This document shows, piece by piece, positions 4,246 to 38,377 of a DNA stretch of 41,316 bases. Each line of letters starts with the position of its first letter. Within the stretch, counting starts at the first letter, position 1. The DNA lies in UHGV virus genome UHGV-0262680, one strand, 5' to 3'. The position numbers were made by a program, and so were the translations under genes. The DNA is from a virus. Below the pieces are notes generated by a model. That model saw only the letters and a program-made list of their open reading frames with translations. It was not told the DNA's origin and ran no database searches.

Positions 4246-4250
4246 GGAAT
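4246..4250. repeat. 5-bp target-site duplication GGAAT (left copy)
   Basis: GGAAT immediately outside the Mu right end is repeated at 37939-37943 immediately outside the Mu left end; Mu transposition makes 5-bp duplications. Confidence 0.85.
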
Positions 4251-4330
4251 TGAAGCGGCGCACGAAAAACGCGAAAACGTTTCACGATAAATGCGAAAAC
4301 TTTAATTTTCGTGCTTCAAACGAAACAGCG
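4251..4330. promoter_or_regulatory. Mu right end (attR) with repeated CGAAAA-type transposase-binding motifs
   Basis: Matches the recalled Mu R-end sequence; the motifs CACGAAAAACGCGAAAACG, TTTCACGATAAATGCGAAAAC and TTTTCGTGCTTCAAACGAAA fit R1-R3-type MuA sites. Confidence 0.6.
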
Positions 4331-4350
4331 GCATTAACCGCTGTTTTTTT
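4325..4350 (+). terminator. Intrinsic-terminator-like hairpin with T-run at the Mu right end
   Basis: ACAGCGG-CATTAAC-CGCTGT followed by TTTTTTT on the plus strand, between the mom stop and the element end. Confidence 0.4.
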
Positions 4351-4365
4351 ATTCATAACGTGGGG

Positions 4366-5103
4366 TCACTTCGGGTATGGCTGAACCCTGAATAGTTTGG
4401 TGTTTAGGCGTTTTCTTGCGCGCTTGTTCAGGAACCTGATGTAGCGATATTGATTAAATTTGTGTACCACTGCCCGTTCCTTATTAGCCCGCAAATACTC
4501 GCCTCGTTGACCTCCGCGCTTAATCGCGTTCATCGCTATCTCGTGATACCACTCGCCGTCCAGTTCGTAGAATGTGCTTTCATGGCTGCCAATAAAATCA
4601 AAATTCGACGCCTGATATGCCACGCCAGCACGCCCGCAGCGTTCGTCTGCAAAGGACTGAACCCACTCCACTGACGGATACAGTAACCTGATGGTTTTCA
4701 GCGCGTAGCTGATGGCCCGTGATTCAGAATTGCGGGGCATGTCGTCGTGTAACCACATGCGGTTCAGTTCCATGTAACCCCGGTTATCTGTTTCAAGCAC
4801 GACACGACGCCCTGAGTTGGGATTAAGGGCATATCCCCACTGAAGAACGCCAACCAGATCACGTCCGCTGAATACGCCCAGATGCAGGTAGGAGTTATTC
4901 ACAAAACGGCGGGAATAATGCTTTGTCTGAATGATTGTGCGGGCCAGCCAGCAGGATATGGTTTCAACGCGCAACTCCTTTGAACCATAGCCGACAATCC
5001 GGCCTTCATACTCAATAACGCAGGGTTTTGTCAGAATGCGTGATTTCTTCTCTTTTCCCACAATACAGCTCCGTGGGATGCTCTTTGGCATTCGATATGA
5101 CAA
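4366..5103 (-). CDS. mom: Mom DNA-modification protein
   Basis: Last gene before the right end and overlaps the 3' end of com, as in Mu. The track start at 5103 is TTG; the first ATG is at 5091 (MPKSIPRS...). Confidence 0.65.
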
Positions 5104-5197
5104 TGTAACGTTTACAGCGAGGGCATTTAATTTCTATATGCTTAAAACCTCCTTTAAACAGTAACTTATTGCAGTTTTTACAGCGAACAGAGTCCAT
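5012..5197 (-). CDS. com: Com zinc-finger translational activator of mom, 61 aa
   Basis: ATG at 5197 after AGGGGGAA gives [61 protein letters not shown], carrying the CKNC...CPRC zinc-finger pattern of Mu Com. Confidence 0.8.
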
Positions 5198-5270
5198 GAT
5201 TCCCCCTGTGTAATAACCAGATACGACCACCCGGAGGGCTGGGGATATTTAACCACACATGATGTAAAAC

Positions 5271-5298
5271 GACGATCGATATGATGGTATCGATCGTC
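5271..5298. promoter_or_regulatory. Perfect 11-bp inverted repeat with two GATC sites upstream of com-mom
   Basis: GACGATCGATA-TGATGG-TATCGATCGTC; the GATC sites are at 5274-5277 and 5292-5295, about 75-100 bp upstream of the com ATG. Confidence 0.45.
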
Positions 5299-5337
5299 AT
5301 AATCTATACAAAACGCTTAATTATTAACCTTTTTGAG

Positions 5338-5808
5338 TCAGCTTTCTGCGGCACTCTGAGAAAGAGGCTCTGCTATCAGGGACAGCAGTCTCTCTGTCTG
5401 TTTTCTGTTTTCGAGGGTAATTGCGCAATCCCGTTTCACCTCCTCTGCATATAATCTGACACTTTCCGCACTTTTTTGTATCTGCATTGCAATCTCTTCG
5501 AACTTTTTAAGAGATTCAGGGCGCAAATCTGCATCTGTCACCGACAAAAAATCGTTAAGCGAACCGTCCTGTGAATCTTCATAAACGCGAATGATGCCGA
5601 TTTCTGAAAGGCGCTGTGCGCTCTGTGTCAGGCGAACACTGTACACGCCCGGCAGAACGGGGAAGTCGTACTCCCCGCTCTGTGTAGTGACGTGGCTGAA
5701 AACACCTTTCAGAATCCCTGCACGGTTGTGCAGGGAGGTCAGCGTGATGGTTGTGCCGCCCAGCGGTTCTCCTGTGGGCGTTTTAATCACACCTTTAAGC
5801 TGCGGCAT
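5338..5808 (-). CDS. Truncated lambda-Stf-like side-tail-fibre N-terminal domain ORF, about 156 aa (likely gene remnant)
   Basis: From the ATG at 5808: MPQLKGVIKTPTGEPL...IRVYEDSQDGSLNDFL..., resembling the lambda Stf N-terminus (MAVKISGVLKDGTGKP...ITVYEDSQPGTLNDFL). It stops before any fibre shaft or tip and overlaps the end of the tfa gene by 14 bp. Confidence 0.55.
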   Translation of the reverse strand: MPQLKGVIKTPTGEPLGGTTITLTSLHNRAGILKGVFSHVTTQSGEYDFPVLPGVYSVRLTQSAQRLSEIGIIRVYEDSQDGSLNDFLSVTDADLRPESLKKFEEIAMQIQKSAESVRLYAEEVKRDCAITLENRKQTERLLSLIAEPLSQSAAES

Positions 5809-6325
5809 CGGGATGCTCCGGCCAGCTGATGGCATTAAGGGAGGCTTCATCAGTAACGGCGCTTAAATCCAGCGCTTTTACCGCTTTGATATACGCCATC
5901 CACTGCGCAAGACGAGCTTTGTCGTCATCACTGATGACGCCCAGCTCCAGCTCGGTTTTCCAGTCGGAGGTGATGTCCTTTGCTTCAGTCAGCAGATGCT
6001 GGCGTTGTTTTTCTGCCAGTTGCGAATAATCAACAGGAACCGGCAGCACTTCGCCGTCTTTGTAATACCAACTGGCTTCAATGCCAAAGCCTTCCGGCAG
6101 TTCATCAACTTCCACAATGGTGAAGCCTGCCGGATAAAGACGGGACACGTCTTCTGCCATTGAATAAATCACGCCGCTTTCAGGGTGAATGCACAATTTG
6201 TATCTCTTCGTGAATTTGTCCATGGATTCATAAAAATCCTGGCCGTCTTCACTGCGGAAATACTGAATGTTTTCACCATAAGGCATCTCTTTCGGGTAAT
6301 AACGCGTGACGTTTCTGAGTTCCAT
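5795..6325 (-). CDS. Tail-fibre assembly protein (Mu U / Tfa-like), 176 aa
   Basis: ATG at 6325 preceded by TAAGGAG; starts MELRNVTRYYP, the typical Tfa N-terminus, and sits directly downstream of the fibre gene. Confidence 0.7.
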   Translation of the reverse strand: MELRNVTRYYPKEMPYGENIQYFRSEDGQDFYESMDKFTKRYKLCIHPESGVIYSMAEDVSRLYPAGFTIVEVDELPEGFGIEASWYYKDGEVLPVPVDYSQLAEKQRQHLLTEAKDITSDWKTELELGVISDDDKARLAQWMAYIKAVKALDLSAVTDEASLNAISWPEHPDAAA

Positions 6326-6339
6326 TATTTTCTCCTTAA

Positions 6340-7149
6340 TTAGCCGGATACCGTGCGCCATCCGCCATTGATATAAATCTGAGTTTGTTTGTAATACACG
6401 CCGCCGATGTTATCCGCAGAGCTCTTGCCAGTTTCCTGAACGTTAATACCTGACAAAATACAACCTGAAGGCGCGCGAAATACCCAGGAAATTTCGTTAC
6501 CACCGGGATTGTGAAACACTTCGCTGGTATACCTGAAATCACGTACTGCACCAGAATCGGTGCTGCTGATAGTGATATCGCTACTGCCATCAAACAGCAC
6601 ATTGTTAATCCTGCGGGCCGTCTGAAGCCGGGTTGCCGTTCCGGCGTTGCCGCTGATGTTGTTGATGGTGATATCCGAAGTCAGGGGCATGTTGTTGACC
6701 CTGCGGGTATTCGGTACGGCACGACTGGCTTTATCTACCGTGTCACGTAACGAAAGCGCATCTATAAATTCACCGGCCGTGGTTTTGCCAAGAATACCGC
6801 GCACAAACGCACTGAGTGGCGTTAATGACATTGTGTCTTCGCCCGTAAAATACGGGAACGTATTACTCTGACCGGTTAATCCGGCAATAGCCCCAGCTGA
6901 ACCACTGTTAGTGATAAACAGCTTTTTCAGCGCCGTCATAATCTGGTTGGTCGTGTTTTTGTCCGGTTTGATATTTGCCTGCCGGAGAATTTCCAGCATT
7001 TCGGACTGCACGATATTAAACCAGTCCGGCCCCGGATACGTGGGTGGAATACCGTTCCCTCCTTCGGTGAAATAAAGCGTCGTTTTACTGTATTCAGCCG
7101 CGACGGGCGGCATAACCGGCACGCCAGTATTATTATCAATGTGAAACAT
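6340..7149 (-). CDS. Tail-fibre protein (Mu S-like N-terminus), 269 aa
   Basis: MFHIDNNTGV...PPVAAEY N-terminus of Mu/P1 S-type fibres and a conserved FPYFTGEDTMSLTPLSAFVRGILG motif comparable to P2 H/lambda Stf; AGGAG ribosome-binding site. Confidence 0.7.
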   Translation of the reverse strand: MFHIDNNTGVPVMPPVAAEYSKTTLYFTEGGNGIPPTYPGPDWFNIVQSEMLEILRQANIKPDKNTTNQIMTALKKLFITNSGSAGAIAGLTGQSNTFPYFTGEDTMSLTPLSAFVRGILGKTTAGEFIDALSLRDTVDKASRAVPNTRRVNNMPLTSDITINNISGNAGTATRLQTARRINNVLFDGSSDITISSTDSGAVRDFRYTSEVFHNPGGNEISWVFRAPSGCILSGINVQETGKSSADNIGGVYYKQTQIYINGGWRTVSG

Positions 7150-7191
7150 ATCTGATTATTTCTCCTGATATTGTGTATACAGAGATATTTA

Positions 7192-8250
7192 TTATTCAGT
7201 AGCGCTCCTTGCCTGATTAAACAACTCCGCTGTAAAAGTCAGCTCACCCTTAGCGAAGGGAGTGTTCCCTCCTGGTTGAGTCATAAAACTCTGTGAGACA
7301 GTCGTCCAGCTGTTTGTGTCGCTTTGTACGCCATTCTCTGTAATCGTTGCGCCTGCATGGCTGCCATTTTTCACTTTCCAGGCCAGGCGGTTATTGGGGG
7401 CATCAGCACCGCGGTAAGTGACCGAGGCCATAACGGCCACAACATCACTGTTGCTGTTATCCACCGCACCAAACGTGGCCTGTGCGGCATTCAGGGACGG
7501 CGAGAGCATCAGATATCCGGCCTCGCTGTCAGAGGTGTTCAGCCCCGTGACAATATCTTTATTCAGTGAGTTTTTGGCGCTTCCACCGGTAAATGCCGTT
7601 ACCGGGCTGTATCTGACCTCAATGCTTCCGAGCAGGGCGGGTTCTGCACTATTATTTCTACCGTATGTCACTGTTCCACAGTACATATCACCCAGCATTA
7701 ACGTGCCGGATGCACCCGATGAAAAAATATTGTTACCACCACCAATACTCACCTGAATTTTGTCAGTCCGGTCATCTGGTACATAAAACGATGTATTTCC
7801 AACTAATGAGCGGTTGCAGTACAGACTGGCTGAGACATAGCCGTTTTCGTTTCGCGTTGCGAAAATTTCATAGTAATAACTGGCTGCTTCATCAGGATAC
7901 GGGGTTGTAAATGAATAGCCATTAATCCTGATGTGGGATGGCGAAGATGAATATTTCTTTCCCGCACTTAATGTCAGACGAAATCCCAGCTGTACAGCTG
8001 AGGATTTTAAGTCCGGAAGTGTGCTGTACAGTGTGACATATGAGGGTGTCGTAAAAATCAGCCCCGTTCTTTCTACAGTATTTACGGCCTGAGTGCCACG
8101 ACAGACGGATGTTACAGAACCGGACATATCATTGATAAGCGTGACACCGTTTTCGTTCAGTGCTGAAATAATATTTGTTGAATAATAGTTCTCGCACAAT
8201 CCCTCATTCGCCGGAATTTGTCGAAAACTTTCGAGTTTAATAATATTCAA
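7192..8250 (-). CDS. Hypothetical Ser/Thr/Gly/Asn-rich virion protein, 352 aa, probable TTG start
   Basis: Long ORF between the gp48-like baseplate gene and the fibre gene; AAGGAG lies 7 nt upstream of the TTG at 8250. No family recognised from memory. Confidence 0.45.
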   Translation of the reverse strand: MNIIKLESFRQIPANEGLCENYYSTNIISALNENGVTLINDMSGSVTSVCRGTQAVNTVERTGLIFTTPSYVTLYSTLPDLKSSAVQLGFRLTLSAGKKYSSSPSHIRINGYSFTTPYPDEAASYYYEIFATRNENGYVSASLYCNRSLVGNTSFYVPDDRTDKIQVSIGGGNNIFSSGASGTLMLGDMYCGTVTYGRNNSAEPALLGSIEVRYSPVTAFTGGSAKNSLNKDIVTGLNTSDSEAGYLMLSPSLNAAQATFGAVDNSNSDVVAVMASVTYRGADAPNNRLAWKVKNGSHAGATITENGVQSDTNSWTTVSQSFMTQPGGNTPFAKGELTFTAELFNQARSATE

Positions 8251-8273
8251 AGCGGCTCTCCTTTTATTTTATG

Positions 8274-9248
8274 TCATTCGGACGTGACCACAGCAAAATG
8301 CAGTCCCGGGTGATTAATCAATAACGGTTCACGGGTTCTGCTGGCTGTCTGCAACTGCATACTGTTAACCGGTACGGGGGAGCGGGTCCTGTATCCCGTC
8401 TGCAACTGTGCGCTGTTCATGGTCATGGGGTCCGTTGTCGGCAGACCTGAGTGCAATTGCGCCCTGCTGAGTACCAGTGGTTCTGCCGTCGGACGGGCGG
8501 CATAAAAGTTAATCCGGTTAATTGTCAGCGGCTTACCTGTCAGTGCCGGAACAAGTGCAAAATGCAGCCCTGCACAGTTAACCGTTAACGGTTCTTCTGG
8601 TTTATATCCGGCCTGAATCTGTATGCGATTAACGGATAATGGCGGACCGGACACAGCCTCATCGTTACCATCGGTGTAAAAAAACTCATACCCTGTTCCA
8701 CCCATGCGGTAATTTTTCAGGAGACATTCCAGCTCGCGGGTGCGTCCGCTGATTAATGGTGTCATGACATCATCAACACAGGTAAAACGCCCGGCGTCGC
8801 TGTCCTGAACCTCCACTTTCAGCAGCCAGCGATACCGCGCCGGATGCAGCGGGTACATGCAGTCGCGCAGGCAGTGATGCGGCAGAACGGCCGTCACCTT
8901 GATGGTGAAGCCCAGCGCCGCAGCAGCGGCTTCAATCTGCCAGGTTGCCAGCCCACCCTTGCGGCGGTATTTCTCCACCACGGCACGACGGCGGGCTTCC
9001 GTTGTGGTGGCGGCAATTCCGCATTCCGGCAGCGCCAGATACTGCTCCCACTCCGGCAGCAGCTGGAGCGTGGTTTCCGGGCGCATCTCCACATGCAGAC
9101 GCGAGGCGTCGTATTCAATGCGGGTTAAACGCGCTGCAAGCGCCCTTAAAAAACGGTTTAAATCCGCGTCGTTATCACGCGGCCATGCTTTACCCCGTGG
9201 CATGACCTGTTGCAGTGCGGTCAGCCATTCCGTCACGCTGTGAGCCAT
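8274..9248 (-). CDS. Baseplate protein (Mu gp48 / P2 gpI-like) with a C-terminal tandem-repeat extension, 324 aa
   Basis: The N-terminal ~200 aa resemble the small baseplate protein family; the C-terminus carries seven ~17-aa repeats of the form P-L-x-(V/I)-N-x-x-x-L. Confidence 0.55.
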   Translation of the reverse strand: MAHSVTEWLTALQQVMPRGKAWPRDNDADLNRFLRALAARLTRIEYDASRLHVEMRPETTLQLLPEWEQYLALPECGIAATTTEARRRAVVEKYRRKGGLATWQIEAAAAALGFTIKVTAVLPHHCLRDCMYPLHPARYRWLLKVEVQDSDAGRFTCVDDVMTPLISGRTRELECLLKNYRMGGTGYEFFYTDGNDEAVSGPPLSVNRIQIQAGYKPEEPLTVNCAGLHFALVPALTGKPLTINRINFYAARPTAEPLVLSRAQLHSGLPTTDPMTMNSAQLQTGYRTRSPVPVNSMQLQTASRTREPLLINHPGLHFAVVTSE

Positions 9249-10309
9249 GTCACCTCCCCGATGGTGATAAGCTCATCCACATCACTGGTGGTGTCTTCCC
9301 CGATGTTGAGAAAGTAATCTGTAATGCCGGATGTCATACCGATGGCCGTGCGCAGCGAGGACACCGGCAGCATCTGACCAGGGGCCAGCGTTTTCTGTAA
9401 TGCGGTCAGGTTTGCCCGGACGGCGTTCCTGTTCGCCTGGCCGTCCGGTGTCAGACGGATGGACAGGTCGACTTTCTTCAGCCTGACCTGAACCGGCCAG
9501 ACCTCAATGCCGCCCGGTTTGCCCACCATAACCCCAGTGGCCGGGTGTTTGTGGCAGAACAGATACTGCTCCATTGTCTTCAGGTCTTTGCGGGTCGGTA
9601 CAATATCTTCACGGTCATCGTAAAGCCATGCCAGTCCGACCGTGCCGGGGCCGTGCCACGCATCCCACGCCCACGCGCGGCTGACGCCAGCCACTTCGCG
9701 AGCCCAGATGACGTAATCATGCAGAGCACCGCCCACCGGGGGATTGCGACGCACATACAGCAGACGGTCCAGCAGCTCCGCGATGGATTCAGTGTCTGCG
9801 CCACCGGTGATGCCACCTTCAGCCACCACGCCTGCACTGGCCGTTCCGGGCAGCGGAGATAACAGGGTCAGCACGGCACCGGCAGCAAGATTACCCGCCA
9901 CCCCGGCTTCTTCAGCCTGCACAATGACGGTGACCTCGCCGTCCCGTACCTCACCGGATGTGAGCACCTGGTACACCTGATTCGTGTCGGACTGCATCCG
10001 TGTTTCAGCCGGAAGGAGAGACTGACTGGTGAAGGTCACCGGCCCGCTGGCAAAGGTGGCCTGTTTGCGGATAACCCCTTCATACGTTGCTGTTTTGATA
10101 ATGGTTTCATCATCAGACGTGGCGGACGGGATTATCTGGTCCTTAATCCAGCTCTGATGGTCGTATAAATCCCGGACCTGACTGCTGAATGACACGTTCA
10201 GCGCTTGCTCAACACTGACAGGCGGCAGCTTTTGCAGGCCGAGTTCATACGCAATATCTTTTTCGCCGTCGGCAATCAGTTTGCCCAGCGTGGGGATTTC
10301 ATACGGCAT
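9233..10309 (-). CDS. Baseplate J-like protein (Mu gp47-like), 358 aa
   Basis: Size and position in the baseplate block; ATG at 10309. Confidence 0.65.
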   Translation of the reverse strand: MPYEIPTLGKLIADGEKDIAYELGLQKLPPVSVEQALNVSFSSQVRDLYDHQSWIKDQIIPSATSDDETIIKTATYEGVIRKQATFASGPVTFTSQSLLPAETRMQSDTNQVYQVLTSGEVRDGEVTVIVQAEEAGVAGNLAAGAVLTLLSPLPGTASAGVVAEGGITGGADTESIAELLDRLLYVRRNPPVGGALHDYVIWAREVAGVSRAWAWDAWHGPGTVGLAWLYDDREDIVPTRKDLKTMEQYLFCHKHPATGVMVGKPGGIEVWPVQVRLKKVDLSIRLTPDGQANRNAVRANLTALQKTLAPGQMLPVSSLRTAIGMTSGITDYFLNIGEDTTSDVDELITIGEVTWLTA

Positions 10310-10751
10310 TAATGGTGGCCTCCCATCGACGGGTGATTTCGATTGTGAGCGTGGTTTTGTCCGGGCGGGTTAACACCACCTGAAAGGCAATACAGTCAGG
10401 GACGATGATTCTGGCCGTGACAGTGGCGTTACGGGCGTAACCGGCCCGCAGCAGCGGTTGCATGGACAGCCGTGCGTAATCTTCCACGCGCAGGCGGACA
10501 TCTTCCGTCAGCTTTTCACGCTCAAGCAGCCACAGGCGGGAACCCCACGAAAAATCGCTGTATGTGTCGCCCGGCCAGCCACGCGGGTCGCCGGAACCAT
10601 CAGGGATGACATCATCGTCATCAGCGCGGGCATCGGTGAAAAGGCAGATAAGAACCTGAGTGACCAGCCCCTCATCCCGTGAGAGGCCGTTATGGGTGAC
10701 GGTGATGTCACCCCGTGAGAGCATGTTATTCCAGCGGATTCCTGTCGTCAT
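10299..10751 (-). CDS. Baseplate protein (Mu gp46-like), 150 aa
   Basis: Position and size in the Mu baseplate order. Confidence 0.55.
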   Translation of the reverse strand: MTTGIRWNNMLSRGDITVTHNGLSRDEGLVTQVLICLFTDARADDDDVIPDGSGDPRGWPGDTYSDFSWGSRLWLLEREKLTEDVRLRVEDYARLSMQPLLRAGYARNATVTARIIVPDCIAFQVVLTRPDKTTLTIEITRRWEATINAV

Positions 10752-11284
10752 ACGGGCGGTGATGTCTTCTCATTGTCGCCGTCCTTATGAATATGATTGC
10801 TGAAAGATTTACCGTTGATGGTGACATCTTCAGTAAATTCACAGGGACCGACGAATTTCATTTGTTTACCGATAATATTCAGCAATTCGTCGGCGGTGAG
10901 ATTTACCGTTGTCCCTGAAACGTCTAATTGTTCCCCTGTTATTTCAATAACGCCGTTTTCCTTCAGGGTGATGTGTGATTTTCCGTCCCGGTGATACAGC
11001 CGGACGTCGCCGGGAGACAGGCCTTTAGGGCGACATCGCTTGTCCTCCACTGCGATGGCAACCAGCCCGTCACGCCGTCCGCCAACGGCCAGCACTATGG
11101 CTTCTGAACCTTCCGGCGGAACGGAAGTAAAACCGTAATTCTGGAAGCGTTCCACGTCGTCATCGGTGGCATCTGCCAGCGTCTGGATTTGCAGGTTCTG
11201 CCGCTCCAGACTGTCAGACACCATGCGGACAATGGCACGGTCAACCATCAGCCGCAGACGGCGGGTAATTGCGCTTAATCCCAT
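10748..11284 (-). CDS. Baseplate spike/assembly protein (Mu gp45 / gpV-like), 178 aa
   Basis: Position and size; start and stop overlap the neighbouring genes. Confidence 0.55.
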   Translation of the reverse strand: MGLSAITRRLRLMVDRAIVRMVSDSLERQNLQIQTLADATDDDVERFQNYGFTSVPPEGSEAIVLAVGGRRDGLVAIAVEDKRCRPKGLSPGDVRLYHRDGKSHITLKENGVIEITGEQLDVSGTTVNLTADELLNIIGKQMKFVGPCEFTEDVTINGKSFSNHIHKDGDNEKTSPPV

Positions 11285-15478: not shown

Positions 15479-15564
15479 GCTGTTTCTCCAGTTGCTTTAT
15501 CAGGCGGAACAGCTGCCGCAGGGGCAGCTGTTCCAGGTACTGAATACTGAATCTCTGGGACAGG

Positions 15565-15960: not shown

Positions 15961-15961
15961 G

Positions 15962-26740: not shown

Positions 26741-26742
26741 GC

Positions 26743-28767: not shown

Positions 28768-28768
28768 A

Positions 28769-29365: not shown

Positions 29366-29410
29366 AAAAGCACCTGTGAAGCAGAGTTAAACGTGGTCTG
29401 CTTCATAGTG

Positions 29411-29450
29411 CCGGAGGCATAAAAAAAGCCGGATTTACCGGCTTCATTGA
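29411..29450 (-). promoter_or_regulatory. Conserved 40-bp dyad-plus-T-run element, copy 2, 46 bp upstream of the endolysin ATG
   Basis: Minus strand TTCAATGAAGCCGGTAAATCCGGCTTTTTTTATGCCTCCGG; nearly identical to copy 1. Confidence 0.5.
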
Positions 29451-29464
29451 ATTAAAAAAGATGA

Positions 29465-30899: not shown

Positions 30900-31177
30900 T
30901 ATCGTACCTCCAGAAAAGGGGGCGGTGCGGCAACACCGCCAGAATCCACTCACTAAACAGAGGAAACTTTTTATGAAAAACAGTGAACAGCCTTATGATG
31001 TTGCAGGGTATGTCATTGCCTCAAGGTTGCTGATACTCCTTGTCAGAAAGGGGCTGATTACCGCAGAGGAAGGCAAAACGATCCTCGAAGCCGCAGCAAG
31101 CGGAGCGGCAGAGGCTCCGGCATTGAGAACAACGAATAATCCCATCCTGCAAATATCACAGCTAATCACTGATACCA

Positions 31178-31525
31178 TCAGTTTGTTAGACCAAGATTCT
31201 GATGAATATCAAAAGCCTCAGCCATCTGAGCATCCGTAAGAATATCTTTATTTGATAGTCCCAGCCTGCGACGAATGTATTCCTCGCGGGCTGCTTCATT
31301 TTGTAGCGCCACGGCAACTTCCACCTGGTTCATTTCACGGTTAATAATGCTCCGGACTTCTCTGGCGGTGAGGTCATGCTCAATACCATATTTAACGATA
31401 TCGTGCATACGTTCCAGCATCTTTAAATTAGCCATGACGCCATCAATATCAACTGGTGTGAATTTCATTTCGTTATTCTCTGGTTTATTCATTTCGTAAT
31501 ACCTCTTCGCAATAAAAGATTTCAT
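31178..31525 (-). CDS. Hypothetical early-region protein, 115 aa
   Basis: ATG at 31525; in the semi-essential early region. Confidence 0.4.
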   Translation of the reverse strand: MKSFIAKRYYEMNKPENNEMKFTPVDIDGVMANLKMLERMHDIVKYGIEHDLTAREVRSIINREMNQVEVAVALQNEAAREEYIRRRLGLSNKDILTDAQMAEAFDIHQNLGLTN

Positions 31526-31667
31526 TGGGATAACGTTTTTGTATGCGCTCCATCACCTGCACACATGCCTGCTCTGTGGGCCAGATTTTTTCCGTTACCG
31601 GAATGGCATCGCAGGCATCATTCCCGCAGGTGCCAACCAGCAGGACAAAGCCAATTGACTTAATCAT
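31485..31667 (-). CDS. Small putative lipoprotein / secreted peptide, about 60 aa
   Basis: From the ATG at 31667: MIKSIGFVLLVGTCGNDAC..., a signal-peptide-like start with a Cys after the hydrophobic core. Confidence 0.3.
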   Translation of the reverse strand: MIKSIGFVLLVGTCGNDACDAIPVTEKIWPTEQACVQVMERIQKRYPNEIFYCEEVLRNE

Positions 31668-32202
31668 GCTCACTGGCTTCCTGTGTTGCCGCCGGAACCG
31701 GTGAATAATCAAGAATGAGATAGCGCAGGACGTGGTCGGTGATATTCCAGCCACTGGAGCCACAAATAAAACGTCCCAGCCGGATATCGATATACGCCAT
31801 CACAAAACGGGGCATTCCCTGTTTGCACATCTCGTCGCCCACTTCTGCAACGATGTAAACCGACTCGCAGGTCAGTACGCCTGTCGCAAATTCTTTTGCC
31901 AGTGCCGGAATAGCATTGCCTTCCAGCCAGGGCAAAGAGCGGCGGAACGCGCACCATTGAGCATCATCAACATCGGGATGTTCCGTTGTTGCGTTTCGTC
32001 TTACTGGCGGCGTCGGACGAGGGCGCGGAACGTCATAAAATCCGTTGCATTCTGTCAGCATTCCGGCATCAACCGCATCACGCAGGAAATACACCATTGA
32101 CGAGGGAGGCATCTTCATTTTTTCAGCCAGAACGCCACAGGTCAGACGCCCGTAAGCCCGTAGTAATGTGCTGACACCGTTCAGAATTTTTGCATCAATC
32201 AT
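31660..32202 (-). CDS. Hypothetical early-region protein, 180 aa
   Basis: ATG at 32202; downstream of gam. Confidence 0.45.
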   Translation of the reverse strand: MIDAKILNGVSTLLRAYGRLTCGVLAEKMKMPPSSMVYFLRDAVDAGMLTECNGFYDVPRPRPTPPVRRNATTEHPDVDDAQWCAFRRSLPWLEGNAIPALAKEFATGVLTCESVYIVAEVGDEMCKQGMPRFVMAYIDIRLGRFICGSSGWNITDHVLRYLILDYSPVPAATQEASEHD

Positions 32203-32300
32203 TTTTTATTTCTCAGATATCAGATTCAGGCGCGAGCAATCCCCTGACGCATCGCGCCATAATTAAAAGATTGTGAATTAATTAAATATTAATGGTGGTA

Positions 32301-32825
32301 TTAAATACCGGCTTCCTGTTCAAATGGAATAATAGAAAAATCTTCAATGCCCGATTTAACTGTAATTCCGGCAACACCTGCGACCGCTTTCGGCTCCAGT
32401 AAAATCGCCTCCTTGTTGATTTCCTGTTTCGTGCGAATAAAACGTTGCAGGCCAAGACGCTCCAGCGTTTCCATTACCGCATCCACACCGCGAATACTTA
32501 CTGATGGTGGGCGCTGACGCCATGACACATCACCGGTGACCAGGTTTGCCGTCTTCACCTTGCCGCCGTTCGTCAGTTCGTCACGGTTCGCTTCACACCA
32601 TCCCTGAATGCCTTTTGAAAGGGTTTCAATACTGGTTTTAAGTGGCGCAATCTGTGAGGCGTATTTTTCTGTAATCTCGGCGATAGCGTCATTCATTTCC
32701 GTTTCAAGTCGTGCTGCTTCGCGTTGCAGGTCACCAATCCGGCGGATATCACATACCACGGCATCGCGGGATTGCGGAACATAAGCCGCTGCGGCGTTCC
32801 TGATTCGTTTTACTGGTTTAGCCAT
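32301..32825 (-). CDS. gam: Gam host-nuclease inhibitor (Ku-like DNA-end-binding protein), 174 aa
   Basis: MAKPVKRIRNAAAAYVPQSRDAV...GWCEANRDELTNGGKVKTANLVTGDVSWR...IIPFEQEAGI, near-identical to Mu Gam as recalled. Confidence 0.9.
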   Translation of the reverse strand: MAKPVKRIRNAAAAYVPQSRDAVVCDIRRIGDLQREAARLETEMNDAIAEITEKYASQIAPLKTSIETLSKGIQGWCEANRDELTNGGKVKTANLVTGDVSWRQRPPSVSIRGVDAVMETLERLGLQRFIRTKQEINKEAILLEPKAVAGVAGITVKSGIEDFSIIPFEQEAGI

Positions 32826-32844
32826 TAAATAAAGCTCCTGTCAA

Positions 32845-33135
32845 TTAATATTCACTGTATACAATGCTGGATACCGCACGATTGCTTAATTCCATCTTTT
32901 TGGCTATCACATGAATAGCCAGCCCTTCTTTATAAAGTTCACGACACAAATATTTGTCATGCTCACTGATTCGGTAAACACACAACGATATTCCGTGCCT
33001 TCTGGCATGTGCCCGGAGGGCGGTTGTGGCAACGTTCAGTTTTTTCGCCATTTCCTCGACGGTCATTTTCCCGACACTGGCTTCGATAAATTCCCGGTCT
33101 TCGCGTGACCATCTTTTGCGAGGGATTATCATCAT
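32845..33135 (-). CDS. Small DNA-binding (helix-turn-helix-like) early protein, about 96 aa
   Basis: ATG-ATG at 33135/33132 after GGAAGGAGG; contains two helix-turn-helix-like segments. Confidence 0.45.
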   Translation of the reverse strand: MMIIPRKRWSREDREFIEASVGKMTVEEMAKKLNVATTALRAHARRHGISLCVYRISEHDKYLCRELYKEGLAIHVIAKKMELSNRAVSSIVYSEY

Positions 33136-33151
33136 GCCTCCTTCCCTGAAA

Positions 33152-33421
33152 TTAATGTTTGGTTGCATCCGGGTTATACCGGAATAACTCGCCTTCGGCT
33201 TCCAGCCCATGTTGTCTGGCTGACTTCAACAACTCCTGGGTTGCTTTTTCAATAATTTCAGGAGCCATGCTCTTGATAATGCCTGCCATCACGTCATGTG
33301 GTCCGATTAGCCCCTTAGGAGACTGTTCTTCCAGTTGCACACTCATTCCTACAAAGAAACCTCCTTTTTTCTGAAACTCAACATCTTCCATGCGGTTAAA
33401 TTCAAAGATTACTTTTGCCAT
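33152..33421 (-). CDS. Hypothetical early protein, about 89 aa
   Basis: ATG at 33421 with GAGGAA upstream (the track start at 33475 is TTG). Confidence 0.4.
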   Translation of the reverse strand: MAKVIFEFNRMEDVEFQKKGGFFVGMSVQLEEQSPKGLIGPHDVMAGIIKSMAPEIIEKATQELLKSARQHGLEAEGELFRYNPDATKH

Positions 33422-33453
33422 TTTGTTATTCCTCACAAATAAATAAGCCGTTG

Positions 33454-33681
33454 TTAACGCCAGATAATCTGACAACCATTAAGACGGGCCGTCCATACTG
33501 AACGGGCAACCCCGGATTTATGCTCCATAATTCTGACAGCATTCCTGACAAGCTCCGGTGGCGGACAGGTGATTTCAAGCACCGGGCGGGCCACGCCCAG
33601 CCAGGATTCGTTGACGTGGCTGCCGCGCCCCTGTAACCAGGTCTTTACTTCCGTTGCCATTTTGATATTCCGTGACATCAT
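33454..33681 (-). CDS. kil: Kil-like small protein, about 75 aa
   Basis: First gene after B; ATG-ATG at 33681 after AAGGAG; size matches Mu Kil at about 74 aa. Confidence 0.45.
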
Positions 33682-33694
33682 GATTTCGCTCTCC

Positions 33695-34633
33695 TTACGT
33701 GCGCAGCAGAGTTGAAATATCAACGTCCAGGTCTAATTCACGGAAAGCCTGACGCAGATAATCTTCATTAACACGTTCACCTTTGCCGTGGGCGGTCATG
33801 GCAGCAAGGCGCAGCGAGTGGTTCAGGATGCGAAGCGCACCTGGTTTTTGCGCAATCTGCTGTAATAATTCCCGCTCATTTTCGCCGGTAATCTGCCAGG
33901 CATCCGCAATGGCCTTTACATCATCAATTTTGGTTTTATTGATTGCCGTCCGTTTGGCAATACGGGAAAACAGTCGGGCAAATTCAACCGTTCTGTTACC
34001 ACCGGTCATGTTTGAATAAACGCGGTGATTCCCCATCAGAACAAGGCCAATACGGGCGGATTCCTGCAACAGGCGGAGTTCTTCCAGAACTTCAGCGCCA
34101 AGATGATCAGCTTCGTCGATAATGACCAGCCCCTGCGTACCTTCAAGACGGCGTCTCAAAGCGCGGGAGAGTGGCCCCTTACGGCGTGGTGCGTCATTCA
34201 TTCCCAGTTCATAAGCCAGTTCAGTCAGGCATTCCAGAACACTGGCACAGGATGGGGTAACGGTGATCATCCAGACATTGTTATTGGTGCGACGAAATTC
34301 GCGGGCCGCTTCAGTTTTTCCCACACCTGGATTACCGCAGATAACAGAAATACTTTCAGTCAGGCTGGCAAAACGCATACTCGTCCAGATTTGGCGTGCT
34401 GTTCTGGTTTCCACAAAACGTGGTGGTTCTGGCAGCTCTGCGGCACGGTGATAGTTCTCCAGCCAGCGTTCCAGCGTCTGCGCAACACGTTCATTGTCGC
34501 CGTTGTACTTGTTATTCACGAATGCGCTTAACGTTCCTGCGGCCACGCCAGACTCGCGTGCAATTTGTGCATAAGTCGCTTTTTCACTTTCTACAAGCGT
34601 GCGCAGTCCTGCGCGAATATCGGAAATATTCAT
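33695..34633 (-). CDS. B: MuB ATP-dependent target-DNA activator, 312 aa
   Basis: [15 protein letters not shown]...[41 protein letters not shown]...; Walker A motif GNPGVGKT; 312 aa as in Mu B. Confidence 0.95.
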
Positions 34634-34671
34634 CTGAATAACCTCGTAATTAAATTTTGTTTAAACGTTAA

Positions 34672-36660
34672 TTAAATGGCTTTTTTACGTCTGTTCTGTT
34701 CCAGAATATCCAGCGAATGATTCAGATATTCATCACGATCAGTTTCATATTCATCATCGGGTTCCTGGTATTTCACCTGCACCGTGTTACCGGAAGGCCG
34801 GAAAATACCAACAACCCTTGATTCTGGCGCTGCTGGTTCGGCTATCTGCGGCAGCAGTTCAGCAACTTCCAGCGCGTCCATTTGCTTCTGCGCCTTAATG
34901 GCTGCTTTAGTTGCAGATTTCAGTTGTTTCTGGCGGCGGCGATATTCGCGGCCTGCCGCAGCATCATTAAATGCAACAGGTGCCAGACATTCCGCTTCAC
35001 AGATAAACCGACCGTCCAGGGTGTAGCAATAAACTGTGCTGTGTAGCTGCTGCGGATCAAACCTGACCACAACTTTTTTCACGCCTGCATTCATTAACGC
35101 CATGTTGTAATAAACGTTTTTCGCGCCTTTAAGGGAGCCGCCAACTTTAAGCGTAAACTCGCCTTTGCGTGAAACGTTCACCGCTTCGGCAGGCAGTAAC
35201 AGCATCCGTTTTTGTTCTTCGGTTGGCTTACGCACAATCGTTCTGGCGTATTCACGCTCGAAAACATCATCAAACGAGAGTTTGCCCCCGCACATTTCTG
35301 TTTCACGGCCTGTTCTGGCATTGAACATCGCCACACCTTCGGCAAGGGTTTTCAGAAACAGCTCTGCATCAACAGCGCGGTCGCCATAGTTATCAGGTTT
35401 TGCCTGCGGATTTGGCCCCGTATATGCACCAGCCAGTGCCGGATGCTTATCAACGTATTCCTCAAGCCCACCAACACCGAAAGCACGTTCAACAGGTTTT
35501 GCCTGGCCCCAGCCTTTACCGGCAACAACGCTTGTCCAGTGCATTTTCGCACCCATCAGTAAAAACAGTCCTTTTGGATCGTCCTCTTTTACCTTAAAGC
35601 GGTAGCGATTGGGCGCGCCTCCCGTCAGCCATTTATTCGCAGCACCACGGGTGTTATCAATGGTGATGTGAAAATCCTCCGGGATACCGTAGCGAGTCAC
35701 AACATCCATGAACGAGAGGCGAATTGAATCAATGTTCTCGCTCACATCGCAGCGCCAGCCCAGAATTTTTCGGGTTTTCACATCCTGCCAGAACCATGTT
35801 TTTGGACGGATCACATCACCGTTAAACCAGCGTACAAAGACGTTATGCAGATAACCGTCGCCGTTGATCCACTGCATGGCGTCCAGGTGTTCCACAGTTC
35901 GCTGCTGTGCTGGTATCAGATGCATCAGTGCATGTTCACCTTCACGACAGGCAACAACCATTGCCTCGTCCAGTTGCTGAATCCGGCGAAAGGCCGTGGC
36001 ACGGGAGGGAATACTCCAGCCATGCTCGCGGGCTGCCAGTTCCAGACGCTCATAACATTTGCGGAAGGCGGGCTTTTCCGGTCGCAGATAATCTGCAATC
36101 AGAAACTGCCAGGCATCCTCGTCAAATTCACTTTTGTGAACATTGCGACGGGATGCTCCACGTCCATCAACAAGTGCAGCCGCCCAGTCAGGTTTCGCAA
36201 ACTTCTGTACCTGGTAATACTTGTCCCGCAAAGTGGATGCGCTGACCTGGTAATGCCCTGCAACGGTCGCAAAAGCCGTTTTCGTTGAAATCCCCTGGTT
36301 CAGCATTTCGTCTGCAGCCTGAACCGCAGGCAACCATTTTTCAGCAAGTCTGCGCTGGGAATCGCTGGCGTTATCCCATTTGCTCCACAGCGCCTCGCGA
36401 TCATAATCGTGGGCTTCCAGCGTGGGGCGGGCGATTTCAAAATACCCTTGGCTTGTTTCAATTCTCCCTTGTTGCAACAGAATTTCAGCACGTAATGTGA
36501 CAGGAAATGATTTGATATTGAATTCAAATGATACACCTTTAGTTCCTGCAACCTGCCTGAACTCCCAGCCTTCTCTTTGTGCCTTACGTGTAATGTTAGT
36601 GGCTTGCTTTGGTAAACCTGCCAAACCGAGCAACTCTTTTGCTGTATACCATTCTTTCAT
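34672..36660 (-). CDS. A: MuA DDE transposase, 662 aa (D108-type N-terminus)
   Basis: From ...[49 protein letters not shown]... onward it matches Mu A as recalled; the first ~60 aa differ, as in D108. Confidence 0.95.
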
Positions 36661-36667
36661 AGCGCAC

Positions 36668-36889
36668 CTAGTATCGAGACGGCCAAATATCTTGCGGTGT
36701 CATTCCCAGTGCATCTGCAATGATTTTCTCCGCTTTCGGATATCTCTTATCCAAAGCATTTTTTAATGTTGAAGACGAAAGATGATTAGATCTTCCCAAT
36801 TCAGCTAGTGACATATTGCGTTTTCGTAGCGCTGCAACGATGTCAGCTCTGTGCCAATCTTGGCTGTTAGTTCTTTTATTCATATGCAT
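36668..36889 (-). CDS. ner: Ner DNA-binding regulator, 73 aa
   Basis: ...[23 protein letters not shown]...[22 protein letters not shown]; 73 aa as in D108 Ner. Confidence 0.85.
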
Positions 36890-37074
36890 TTCATGTAATC
36901 CTTTCAGATTCCCCCGTGAGCTACGCTATAAAGTAGCTCACGGCATATCGTGCAATGTAGTGTGGAATCACTTTCAAATCAATAGTGATTTGATAGGATT
37001 TGCCACAATTTTGCATAACGGCATGATTTTTATATGAATTTATTTTATCTCTATTGAAATCACTAGGATTTTAA
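36890..37074. promoter_or_regulatory. Divergent early/repressor promoter-operator region between ner and c
   Basis: 185-bp AT-rich intergenic region between divergent genes; contains the inverted repeats GTGAGCTAC-N8-GTAGCTCAC and AATCACT-N11-AGTGATT. Confidence 0.6.
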
Positions 37075-37599
37075 ATGATGCCTTTTGAAATCAAAGAATG
37101 GTTTAATGCGAAAGAGCTGGAAGGGATGCCTGGTGTACCAAAGTTGGCGACTAACATTACCAGGAAAGCTGTGGCGGAAGATTGGGTAAAACGTCAGCGT
37201 CACGGTGGGAAAGGTGTCGCTTATGAGTATCACATCAACAGTCTGCCAGAAGAAACACGCAGGGCCATTAAAGGAGCCTCACTTTCTGATAAACCAGTGC
37301 ATACATCAATCGCCCATACAGTTGATGAGAGGCTAATTTATGCAATGAGCTTCTTAACACCAGATGAGCAGGCCGCAGCTGTGGAGATCATTCGTGTAGC
37401 AGGGATTAAAGGACTTATGCCTACAATTGTCAGTAAAGATAAGGCATTAGAGGCATTAGGGATTACTGTGGAGCAACAGAAAACCCTGCAAACTCTTCAG
37501 GCATTACCACCGGAAAAAGTGAGAGAGATTTTGTCTCAGTATGAAGGCAAAGAACATAATTTCCCTGTAAGAGAAAACGATGTAAAGAAGGCTGTATAA
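37075..37599 (+). CDS. c: Repressor c (D108-type), 174 aa
   Basis: Divergent from ner; the N-terminus [32 protein letters not shown] parallels the DNA-binding N-terminus of the adjacent transposase ([27 protein letters not shown]), as is known for Mu/D108 repressor and A. Confidence 0.85.
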   Translation: MMPFEIKEWFNAKELEGMPGVPKLATNITRKAVAEDWVKRQRHGGKGVAYEYHINSLPEETRRAIKGASLSDKPVHTSIAHTVDERLIYAMSFLTPDEQAAAVEIIRVAGIKGLMPTIVSKDKALEALGITVEQQKTLQTLQALPPEKVREILSQYEGKEHNFPVRENDVKKAV

Positions 37600-37938
37600 C
37601 AACCAGGTAATGGCTAAGACATAAACTTCACTCCAGGTTATTACATATGTAAGATACCCAAACAGTGATGATTGTTTTTGACACACAGCACTTGCTGAAA
37701 GCCTGGTTGTTACCGTTTTTGAAGCATTTTTGAAGCTGTACTTGAAATGATGCGTGAAGTAATTGCTTTTCGTGTCTTTAATGAATCAAAAGCTGTTTCC
37801 AACAATCTTTCGCGTTTCAAGATGTAACGGCTAAAATCTATCCTACAGGCTTGCAAGCCCCACTAAATCTAATCCCGCCAAATCCCGAATAATCCAATGT
37901 CCTCCCGGTTTTTTTCGTACTTCACGTGAATCAATACA
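37600..37938. promoter_or_regulatory. Mu left end (attL) with transposase-binding sites
   Basis: Terminal sequence rc TGTATTGATTCACGTGAAGTACGAAAAAAACCGGGAGGACATTGG..., with further TGAAGC/TTTCG-type repeats inward. Confidence 0.65.
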
Positions 37939-38377
37939 GGAATTCGATTAGTTCTTCGCGTGTAGCACTGTAAAAAGTCACGTCATCCACGCCTTTGAAG
38001 TATTTCTTGATGGTTCCTACACGCTTAAGGCCAATCATTGCGCAGTACATCTGCCCGTGGCGGAATTTGCGTGCAGCGAACGATGTGACGCACTGAACGG
38101 TGGTGTTAGTCAGAATGTATCGCCAGAACGCCAGACCGATTTCCTTGCTGAATCCACGAACCTCTGGCAGGTACATGGCGTGGCAATCGAATGTCAGCGG
38201 CTGAATCTCCTGATAGTAAACAATGCCGCCGAACTGCCCGTGCACGCTCACCTCAAAGTAACGGCATTCAGGTTTGTAGTCGTATCCATCGCCGTTGTTG
38301 CTCCCGGCGATAATGTCAGGGTGATTTCCGACTGCTTCTATCAGGTCGATGTTTCGCGTTGGTTTGAATGTAATCAT
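37931..38377 (-). CDS. P22 gene-14-like protein, C-terminus altered by the Mu insertion
   Basis: The ORF reads from host DNA into the Mu left end, ending ...ELIEFLY. Joining the flanks across one GGAAT copy restores ...ELIEFLNHGR-stop. Confidence 0.55.
   Translation of the reverse strand: MITFKPTRNIDLIEAVGNHPDIIAGSNNGDGYDYKPECRYFEVSVHGQFGGIVYYQEIQPLTFDCHAMYLPEVRGFSKEIGLAFWRYILTNTTVQCVTSFAARKFRHGQMYCAMIGLKRVGTIKKYFKGVDDVTFYSATREELIEFLY
37939..37943. repeat. 5-bp target-site duplication GGAAT (right copy)
   Basis: Identical to 4246-4250. Confidence 0.85.

What the first reader, a model, noticed from the sequence alone, without database searches (positions are those of the whole stretch)
4246..37943. 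Complete Mu/D108-like transposable prophage inserted into a P22-like virion gene cluster
Canonical Mu termini lie at 4251 and 37938 with a perfect 5-bp GGAAT duplication. The insertion replaces the last codons of a gene-14 homologue (...LNHGR becomes ...LY) and separates the downstream ejection genes 7/20/16 from their upstream promoter by 33.7 kb. This is a phage-in-prophage event that probably cripples the P22-like element while leaving the Mu-like element looking intact.
Basis: partly seen in the sequence, partly recalled or inferred. Interest (0 to 1): 0.6.

Follow-up and report, generated by a model that had tools for sequence, protein, structure and literature searches.

The report
Mosaic Mu-type prophage inside P22-like prophage
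A complete, apparently functional Mu-type transposable phage of 33.7 kb has jumped into the end of a head-assembly gene of a P22-like prophage of E. coli. This is an ordinary transposition event, but the inserted phage is an undescribed hybrid of D108 transposition genes and a non-Mu virion module.

Summary
A 33,688-bp Mu-type element occupies 4251..37938 in reverse orientation. It ends 5'-TG...CA-3', has the Mu arrangement of transposase-binding sites (L1-L3, R1-R3), and is flanked by a perfect 5-bp duplication, GGAAT. Deleting the element and one GGAAT restores a gene 14/gene 7 junction. That junction aligns end to end with 121 P22-like phages and 823 E. coli genomes. gp14 changes from ...EFLNHGR (151 aa) to ...EFLY (148 aa).

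The interpretation needs three refinements.
- Only about 22% of the element is Mu/D108 DNA. The D108-like part is attL-c-ner-A (c, ner and A 97-99% aa). B through gemA are 72-91% aa, and com-mom-attR is Mu-like. The remaining ~25 kb of lysis and virion genes are 28-50% aa identical to Mu, have 56-60% GC, and carry no gin/G segment and no separate C gene.
- The same mosaic element sits at four other E. coli sites, each with its own 5-bp duplication. All 49 coding genes are open here, so it is very probably active.
- The window is a whole metagenome contig that stops about 140 nt into IS629 at both ends. The P22-like prophage therefore carries at least two further insertions, and Mu need not be what disabled it.

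This is a new member of a known kind, of modest interest.

The parts
1..140 (-). IS629 left end (IRL plus the start of orfA). The contig stops here, at k-1 of a k=141 assembly.
   Evidence: The P22-like match starts at 141. The mirror copy at the other end is 100% identical to an annotated IS629 orfA region. The contig is named k141_20272.
271..2112 (-). P22-like ejection protein gene 16 (613 aa), open
   Evidence: 612 residues identical to the 612-aa 'P22-gp16 family' protein of E. coli 23CRST032.
2109..3524 (-). P22-like ejection protein gene 20 (471 aa), open
   Evidence: 469/471 identical to the homologue in L005.
3534..4226 (-). P22-like ejection protein gene 7 (230 aa). Its start codon lies 24 nt from the Mu right end.
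   Evidence: 228/230 identical. Annotated 'DNA transfer/ejection protein' in the matching records.
4246..4250 (.). Target-site duplication GGAAT, copy 1
4251..37938 (-). Complete Mu-type transposable prophage, 33,688 bp. The Mu left (c) end is at 37938.
4261..4322 (-). attR transposase-binding sites R1 (4261-4277), R2 (4283-4299) and R3 (4306-4322, inverted)
   Evidence: Consensus scan scoring 16-17 of 17. Mu-like alignment.
4366..5197 (-). mom (4366-5091; 96% aa to Mu) and com (5012-5197; 73%)
5338..5850 (-). Truncated lambdoid side-tail-fibre N-terminal fragment. It occupies the position of Mu's G segment and gin.
   Evidence: PF08400 hit. PGAP marks it a pseudogene in identical copies. No gin hit. 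No G-type inverted repeats.
5795..29365 (-). Non-Mu late module: GH108 endolysin, terminase, portal, protease, major head, sheath, tube, tape measure, baseplate, short tail fibre and chaperone. GC is 56-60% in the 1-kb bins of about 11-29 kb (52-61% over 8-11 kb).
   Evidence: 28-50% aa identity to Mu proteins. GC profile. Annotation of a near-identical copy. TerL nearest relatives are Trabulsiella (83%) and Klebsiella, Kluyvera and Vibrio (~69%).
29465..29944 (-). 159-aa ORF of unknown function, between mor and the endolysin gene
   Evidence: No Pfam hit. Full-length match to phrog_38744, function unknown.
29941..30351 (-). The only Mor/C-family activator gene (59% aa to Mu Mor, 32% to Mu C)
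   Evidence: PF08765 hit. tblastn.
30348..33681 (-). Semi-essential early region: gemA, gp14/15-like, gp11, gam, gp9, gp7-like and kil (72-91% aa to Mu/D108, except gp14/gp15-like at 37-72% and 55%)
33695..36660 (-). B (33695-34633; 89% aa) and transposase A (34672-36660; 98.6% aa to D108)
   Evidence: Pfam PF02316, PF09039, PF02914 and PF09299 for A, and PF09077 for B.
36668..37599 (.). ner (36668-36889, - strand; 97.3% to D108), the operator/enhancer gap, and repressor c (37075-37599, + strand; 98.3% to D108)
37767..37928 (-). attL transposase-binding sites L3 (37767-37783), L2 (37807-37823) and L1 (37912-37928)
   Evidence: D108-like alignment.
37939..37943 (.). Target-site duplication GGAAT, copy 2
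37931..38377 (-). P22-like gene 14 (DUF2824), with its 3' end replaced: 148 aa ending ...EFLY instead of 151 aa ending ...EFLNHGR. The stop codon lies inside the Mu left end.
   Evidence: PF11039.
38377..40496 (-). P22-like tail needle gene 26 (38377-39078) and gene 10 (39078-40496), both open
40444..41177 (-). HNH/NUMOD4 homing-endonuclease gene (40444-41028), followed by a relic copy of the gene 10 5' end and the last 8 nt of gene 4
   Evidence: PF07463 and PF13392. The same HNH position occurs in Salmonella phage UPF_BP1. Sequence read.
41178..41316 (+). IS629 left end, inverted relative to the copy at 1-140; the contig ends here

Best explanation
A Mu-type transposable phage integrated by MuA/MuB-mediated transposition into the last codons of gene 14 of a P22-like prophage in an E. 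coli or Shigella-like host.

Shown:
- Exact 5'-TG...CA-3' ends with the Mu L1-L3/R1-R3 site layout.
- A 5-bp staggered-cut duplication and a perfectly restorable target.
- A D108-type repressor, Ner and transposase, plus a MuB homologue.
- 49 open coding genes.
- Four further copies of the same element at unrelated chromosomal sites, each with its own 5-bp duplication.

The element is a mosaic. Its D108-like transposition and immunity cassette and its Mu-like com-mom-attR are joined to a virion and lysis module from a different Mu-like lineage. That lineage is Enterobacteriaceae- or Vibrio-type, with no gin or G segment and a single Mor-family activator.

Inferred:
- The element is inducible and forms virions.
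- The insertion disables the P22-like prophage. It shortens gp14 by three residues. It places 33.7 kb between genes 26-14 and genes 7-20-16. It would raise a ~39-40 kb genome to ~73 kb, far above the ~43.5 kb P22 headful (established knowledge of P22 packaging).
- The P22-like prophage is also hit by two IS629 copies, so it may already have been defective.
For: - Ends and MuA-binding sites.
- Target-site duplication.
- Empty site in 121 phages and 823 E. coli genomes.
- No complete E. coli genome carries this junction. The truncated gp14 is found on only one contig in the gene-position index, and that contig is this window.
- An element of identical length with 14 substitutions lies in E. coli NCCP 13717, in an SDR gene, with duplication GCGGG.
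- Further copies carry duplications CTCGT (yehQ/yehR), ATCTG (inside a lambdoid prophage) and CCTAA (irp1/irp2).
- All 49 CDS are open, with at most 2 aa differences from the NCCP 13717 copy.
- Protein identities to Mu and D108. Mosaic map. Pfam domains of A and B.
- IS629 at both ends.
Against: - No expression, induction or read-level data exist.
- GGAAT/ATTCC does not fit the preferred Mu target pentamer N-Y-(G/C)-R-N. That consensus is from recollection, and it is a preference rather than a rule.
- The element lacks gin, the G segment and a separate C activator. It also pairs a D108-type left end, where Mu's pac site lies, with a terminase only 46-49% identical to Mu's, so functional compatibility is inferred, not shown.
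- The copy in strain 23CRST050 has a frameshifted portal gene, so copies of this lineage do decay.
- Whether the rest of the P22-like prophage exists beyond the IS629 copies is unknown.
Confidence: 0.9

Rival explanations
1. Assembly artefact: the metagenome assembler joined a Mu-like phage to unrelated P22-like sequence.
For: The window is an entire MEGAHIT k141 contig from a metagenome. It ends in repeats at both sides. No other record has these junctions.
Against: A chimera would not break exactly at both Mu termini. It would not create a perfect 5-bp direct duplication. Nor would it leave flanks that rejoin into an uninterrupted gene 14/gene 7 sequence 98-99% identical to hundreds of genomes.
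Confidence: 0.02
2. The Mu-like element is a structurally complete but non-functional (cryptic) prophage, for example because mismatched modules (pac and terminase, late promoters and activator) or the short tail fibre prevent a productive cycle.
For: There is no gin/G segment or C gene, and only one Mor-family activator. The region upstream of com is not homologous to Mu Pmom. A truncated tail-fibre fragment is present. One relative has a frameshifted portal.
Against: At least five independent insertion sites occur in unrelated strains from Korea, the Netherlands, Japan, Ecuador and this metagenome. The compared parts are 99.5-100% identical (late region; full length for NCCP 13717), and lengths are 33,681-33,689 bp. 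That implies recent horizontal spread as a unit. All 49 CDS are open. The same body works with a different transposition cassette in TD225-C4.
Confidence: 0.2
3. The P22-like prophage was already a defective remnant through IS629 insertions or rearrangement when Mu landed, so the Mu insertion had no functional consequence for it.
For: IS629 ends lie 130 nt downstream of gene 16 and 8 nt upstream of the old gene 10 start, in the last codons of gene 4. They are in inverted orientation, a layout that permits inversion. Only 7.3 kb of P22-like DNA is visible.
Against: All visible P22-like genes are still open and 97-100% identical to intact prophages, so all three insertions are recent. Their order cannot be deduced.
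Confidence: 0.45

Closest known systems
Escherichia phage D108 (Muvirus), NC_013594
   Same: The first 4,486 bp (attL, c, ner, A, B, kil) are 93.7% nt identical. Against D108, c is 98.3%, ner 97.3% and A 98.6% aa identical. The L1-L3 layout is the same, and gam, gemA and mom are homologous.
   Different: Identity weighted over the whole genome is only ~22% (my arithmetic). The late genes are not homologous at the DNA level. There is no gin or G segment, no C, and no D108 gene 56. The right end is Mu-type rather than D108-type. The element is 33.7 kb, against 37.2 kb for D108.
Escherichia phage Mu, NC_000929
   Same: Ends, 5-bp duplication, R1-R3 layout and com-mom-attR (88% nt; Mom 96% aa). 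A is 93% and B 89% aa identical. The overall gene order is the same: early, lysis, head, tail, fibre, mom.
   Different: Different immunity (c is 30% aa identical). The virion proteins are only 28-50% aa identical, and no hit at all was found for lys, gp23-25, G, gp35, gp37 and gp38. No invertible G segment or gin. No separate late activator C. GH108 endolysin.
Klebsiella phage Kp4866-3; Vibrio phage martha 12B12; Shewanella phage MuM16-2 (Mu-like myoviruses)
   Same: These are the closest isolated-phage relatives of the late module: TerL ~69-70% aa, and 72.6% nt over part of the tail and head region for Kp4866-3.
   Different: Their transposition modules and ends were not compared. They are far below species or genus identity. 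No isolate in the phage collection covers more than 16% of the late half.
Sp18 Mu-like prophage of E. coli O157:H7 Sakai
   Same: A Mu-type prophage of pathogenic E. coli that sits at strain-specific sites and disrupts genes (sorM). It is described as capable of transposition (PMC7430833).
   Different: Only scattered ~70% nt matches. Sp18 is 38.8 kb and has a DNA invertase. It is a different lineage.
Sibling prophage in E. coli TD225-C4 (NZ_CP035860)
   Same: The body from mom to gemA (window 4370-30900) is 99.4% nt identical.
   Different: Both ends and the c/ner/A/B genes are replaced by an unrelated transposition cassette (695-aa transposase, GTATCAAA-type end repeats). The transposase and both ends are therefore exchanged as a set.

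Membership tests
Mu-type transposable phage (MuA/MuB DDE transposition) | 5'-TG...CA-3' termini with three transposase-binding sites at each end (L1, then spaced L2/L3; R1-R3 contiguous) | tested here: met
Mu-type transposable phage (MuA/MuB DDE transposition) | 5-bp target-site duplication | tested here: met
   GGAAT here. GCGGG, CTCGT, ATCTG and CCTAA at four other copies.
Mu-type transposable phage (MuA/MuB DDE transposition) | MuA-type transposase (Mu DNA-binding domains, DDE core, Mu C-terminal domain) adjacent to a MuB AAA+ ATPase | tested here: met
   PF02316, PF09039, PF02914 and PF09299 on the 662-aa protein. PF09077 on the 312-aa protein. 98.6% and 89% aa to D108 A and B.
Mu-type transposable phage (MuA/MuB DDE transposition) | Insertion at many unrelated sites, with no site-specific integrase | tested here: met
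   Five different sites. No integrase among the 49 CDS.
Mu-type transposable phage (MuA/MuB DDE transposition) | Replicative transposition and headful packaging with variable host DNA at the ends | not testable with these tools
   Needs induction, or virion or read-level data.
Genus Muvirus (Mu, D108, SfMu) | About 70% or more nucleotide identity over the genome length (ICTV genus guideline, from recollection) | tested here: not met
   About 22% of the element's length times identity is shared with D108, and less with Mu. No record in the phage collection covers 80% or more.
Genus Muvirus (Mu, D108, SfMu) | Invertible G segment with Gin invertase and alternative S/U and S'/U' fibres | tested here: not met
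   No gin or S' hit. No long inverted repeats in 4251-9300. A single short fibre gene plus chaperone.
Genus Muvirus (Mu, D108, SfMu) | Two-step late control: Mor activates C, and C activates the late promoters including Pmom | tested here: not met
   Only one PF08765 gene is present. Mu C aligns only to that gene, at 32%. The com upstream region is not homologous to Mu.
P22-like phage (Lederbergvirus-type) virion gene cluster | Gene order 4-10-26-14-7-20-16 with high identity to P22-like phages | tested here: met
P22-like phage (Lederbergvirus-type) virion gene cluster | Complete prophage (packaging, capsid, tailspike, immunity, integrase) | not testable with these tools
   The contig ends in IS629 on both sides.
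IS629 (IS3 family) | Terminal sequence and start of orfA identical to annotated IS629 | tested here: met
   139 nt are 100% identical to the region annotated 'IS629 putative transposase OrfA' in JQ347801. Only ~140 nt of each copy is present.

The most novel reading that the evidence does not exclude
The insert represents an undescribed, currently spreading, genus-level lineage of E. coli transposable phage. It arose when a D108-type transposition and immunity cassette, together with matching left and right ends, was grafted onto the body of a different Mu-like phage. The sibling in TD225-C4 carries the same body with an unrelated transposase and unrelated ends. This would show that in Mu-like phages the transposase and both termini are exchanged as one functional unit, through two coordinated recombination breakpoints, one of them exactly at the 3' end of mom. 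A more speculative add-on: all Mu genes point the same way as the P22 late operon. Antiterminated P22 late transcription could therefore run into the Mu early operon and couple induction of the two phages.
Probability: 0.5. Interest if true: 0.4.

Novelty: new member of a known kind. Interest (0 to 1): 0.3.

Why it matters
This is a clean, fully bounded example of one temperate phage inactivating another, 'grounding' a prophage by transposition. It was recovered from a metagenome with both junctions intact. The more useful result is the inserted phage itself. It is a D108-immunity, Mu-ended element with a non-Mu virion module, and I found it in at least 45 complete E. coli genomes. It disrupts genes such as rlmB, an SDR gene, the yersiniabactin irp1/irp2 interval and another prophage. 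I found no description of it in the literature searched. It is a natural test case for which Mu features (gin/G, C, pac-terminase pairing) are dispensable or interchangeable. None of this challenges what is known about Mu biology.

Tried and rejected
- An exact 39-nt scan for the left junction in the GTDB species-representative genomes found nothing. No complete E. coli genome holds the junction either. The source strain therefore could not be named.
- Rfam at gathering thresholds gave no RNA family in the window.
- A search for G-segment-like inverted repeats in 4251-9300 gave only two weak 18-19-nt pairs, taken as chance.
- The 214-nt central gap was tested for similarity to Mu's strong gyrase site. 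Only 7-16-nt chance matches were found.
- The tandem CGTTTTTGAAGG motif of that gap was tested as a possible shared late-promoter element. It gave 8 matches against 4.7 expected, which is not significant, and it is absent from other operon starts.
- Consensus promoter and terminator scans around both junctions were at or below shuffle expectation and settled nothing about read-through into gene 7.
- Sp18 of O157:H7 Sakai was considered as the same phage and rejected, with only scattered ~70% matches.
- Literature searches found no paper describing this mosaic element or a Mu insertion in a P22-like prophage.
Full report
OBSERVATION

The + strand reads ...GATTCAGGAAT|TGAAGCGGCGCACGAAAAACGCG... 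at 4246-4251 and ...CACGTGAATCAATACA|GGAATTCGATTAG... at 37938-37943. The first is the Mu right end and the second is the reverse complement of the Mu/D108 left end. The element therefore lies in reverse orientation. It is 33,688 bp long and is flanked by a perfect GGAAT duplication.

- The three-way alignment of the first 250 nt of the left end with Mu and D108 has 94% mean column identity, and the window sequence is nearly identical to D108. The right end follows Mu rather than D108.
- Matches to the MuA-site consensus lie at 11-27, 116-132 and 156-172 nt from the left end. They lie at 11-27, 33-49 and 56-72 (inverted) nt from the right end. This is exactly the L1-L3/R1-R3 layout.

EMPTY SITE

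A 349-nt rejoin with one GGAAT removed aligns over its full length with 121 P22-like phage records. These include Bas106 (98.3%), IME10, Sf6 and HK620. It also aligns with 823 of 5,426 complete E. coli genomes, at up to 98.9%. In every case it spans the gene 14 (DUF2824)/gene 7 boundary.

- The rejoined gp14 is 151 aa and ends ...EFLNHGR, as in relatives. The interrupted gp14 is 148 aa and ends ...EFLY, with its stop codon inside Mu.
- Genes 16, 20, 7, 26 and 10 are open.

WHAT THE INSERT IS

It is not simply Mu or D108.

- Megablast finds Mu-family DNA only at 4251-5187 (attR, mom, com; 88%) and at about 30.4-37.9 kb (early region; up to 91%). A finer map shows the first 4,486 bp are 93.7% identical to D108.
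- Against D108, c is 98.3%, Ner 97.3% and A 98.6% aa identical. B is 89% and Mom 96-97%.
- Between about 5.2 and 30.1 kb, the proteins that hit Mu at all are only 28-50% identical to it, apart from small-ORF outliers (gp18-like 68%, gp26-like 61%, gp41-like 51%). Gene order is Mu-like. GC rises to 56-60% over about 11-29 kb, against 46-51% in the Mu/D108-like parts.
- There is no gin, no S'/U', and no long inverted repeat, so no G segment. A truncated lambdoid side-fibre N-terminal fragment occupies that position.
- Only one Mor/C-family gene is present. The endolysin is GH108 rather than Mu Lys.
- The nearest TerL relatives are prophages of Trabulsiella (83%) and of Klebsiella, Kluyvera, Raoultella and Pluralibacter (69%), then Vibrio and Shewanella Mu-like phages (~69-70%). 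Mu is at 49%.
- Summed identity times length against D108 is about 22% of the element (my arithmetic). This is far below a genus-level relationship.

IS IT INTACT AND MOBILE?

- E. coli NCCP 13717 carries an element of exactly 33,688 bp that differs by 14 substitutions. It is inserted in an SDR oxidoreductase gene and flanked by GCGGG.
- Three more copies of 33,681-33,689 bp carry their own 5-bp duplications. One lies between yehQ and yehR (CTCGT). One lies inside the tail-fibre region of a lambdoid prophage in an O166:H15 strain (ATCTG). One lies between irp1 and irp2 (CCTAA).
- Forty-five complete E. coli genomes hold at least 80% of the late region.
- In the window all 49 coding genes are open, with at most 2 aa differences from the NCCP 13717 copy.
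- These facts show recent movement of this exact mosaic. Present-day inducibility of this particular copy is inferred.
- In strain TD225-C4 the body from mom to gemA is 99.4% identical, but both ends and c/ner/A/B are replaced by an unrelated cassette. The transposase and both termini are thus exchanged together, with one breakpoint at the 3' end of mom (window 4369/4370). That is also where D108 diverges.

CONTEXT

The truncated gp14 sequence is on record on a single contig, ENA ERZ27264790 k141_20272, of length 41,316. The window is that whole contig.

- Its first 140 nt and last 139 nt are the same IS629 left end in inverted orientation. They are 100% identical to an annotated IS629 orfA region. 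This is k-1 for a k=141 assembly, so the assembler stopped in a repeat.
- One IS629 lies 130 nt downstream of gene 16, inside a small ORF seen in an intact relative. The other lies 8 nt upstream of a relic gene 10 start, in the last codons of gene 4.
- The P22-like prophage therefore carries at least three recent insertions, and the late promoter is not visible.
- The flanks are 98-99.3% identical to E. coli prophages, so the host is E. coli or Shigella.

MECHANISM AND CONSEQUENCES

Integration by MuA/MuB strand transfer with a 5-bp stagger is directly supported by the ends and the duplication.

Consequences for the P22-like element are inferred.
- gp14 loses NHGR and gains Y.
- Genes 7, 20 and 16 lie 33.7 kb further from any upstream late promoter.
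- A genome enlarged to about 73 kb cannot fit a ~43.5-kb P22 headful (established knowledge).

Because IS629 also interrupts the prophage, Mu cannot be singled out as the inactivating event.

All Mu genes except c point in the same direction as the P22 late operon. Read-through coupling is conceivable but untested. Simple promoter and terminator scans were uninformative.

RIVALS

- An assembly chimera is essentially excluded by the exact ends, the duplication and the restorable site.
- A complete but cryptic element is possible. The pac site and terminase come from mismatched lineages, there is a single activator, and one relative has a frameshifted portal. Multi-site spread of near-identical copies argues against this.

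NOVELTY

Mu inserts almost anywhere, so landing in a prophage is unremarkable. The O166:H15 copy does the same. The mosaic phage is present in RefSeq genomes, and its proteins already have PHROG families. However, no isolate in the phage collection resembles it overall, and I found no paper describing it.

Verdict: the finding is real and correctly read, it is a new member of a known kind, and it is of modest interest.

Noticed in passing
window 1-140 and 41178-41316: Both contig ends are the same IS629 left end in inverted orientation, each about k-1 (140 nt) long. The window is an entire MEGAHIT k141 metagenome contig (ENA ERZ27264790 k141_20272). The P22-like fragment plus Mu is bracketed by two inverted IS629 copies, a layout that would allow inversion.
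   Followed up: yes
window 40444-41177: An HNH/NUMOD4 homing-endonuclease gene sits at the 5' end of gene 10. It is followed by a relic duplicate of the first ~28 codons of gene 10 ([16 protein letters not shown]...). Salmonella phage UPF_BP1 has an HNH gene at the same place.
   Followed up: partly
window 5338-5850: A 170-aa ORF with a lambdoid 'prophage tail fibre N-terminal' domain (PF08400) lies directly after the tail-fibre chaperone gene, where Mu has the G segment and gin. It is truncated. PGAP calls it a pseudogene in identical copies. It is probably a recombination scar.
   Followed up: partly
window 21811-22024: This 214-nt stretch is the largest internal non-coding gap, and it lies at 47.6% of the element length, the relative position of Mu's strong gyrase site. 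It holds tandem CGTTTTTGAAGG repeats and a hairpin, GAAGCCGGTAAATCCGGCTTTTTTT. The same hairpin recurs upstream of the endolysin gene (window ~29423-29447). No sequence similarity to the Mu gyrase site was found.
   Followed up: partly
window 5265-5300 (- strand): A perfect 11-nt-arm palindrome, GACGATCGATA-CCATCA-TATCGATCGTC, carrying two GATC (Dam) sites lies upstream of com. The region is not homologous to Mu Pmom. In Mu, Pmom is controlled through Dam-methylated GATC sites (from recollection). It could be a regulatory site or a terminator.
   Followed up: no
L010 (E. coli TD225-C4, NZ_CP035860) 10576-44354: A sibling prophage inserted in rlmB has the same body (99.4% over window 4370-30900). 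Its ends are unrelated (GTATCAAA-type repeats), and so are its repressor, Ner, 695-aa transposase and B. The same terminase therefore works with two unrelated left ends, which raises the question of where pac lies.
   Followed up: partly
L009 (E. coli O166:H15 JNE21-009) 10552-44240: The same 33,689-bp element is inserted inside the tail-fibre region of a lambdoid prophage, with duplication ATCTG. This is a second phage-in-prophage case for this lineage.
   Followed up: partly
L011 (E. coli 23CRST050) 29084-30407: This copy of the element, between irp1 and irp2 of the yersiniabactin island, has a frameshifted portal (DUF935) gene. Some copies of the lineage are therefore decaying.
   Followed up: no
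window 27550-28556: Downstream of the GH108 endolysin gene lie a gp18-like ORF, then a 136-aa ORF and a 202-aa ORF. PGAP annotates the 202-aa ORF as a 'TatA/TatE family subunit'. Both match PHROGs of unknown function and may be the holin/spanin equivalents of this lysis cassette.
   Followed up: no
window 38377-39078: The tail needle gp26 is only 173/233 identical to the needle of the otherwise 97-100% identical E. coli prophage. This is local mosaicism in the P22-like flank.
   Followed up: no
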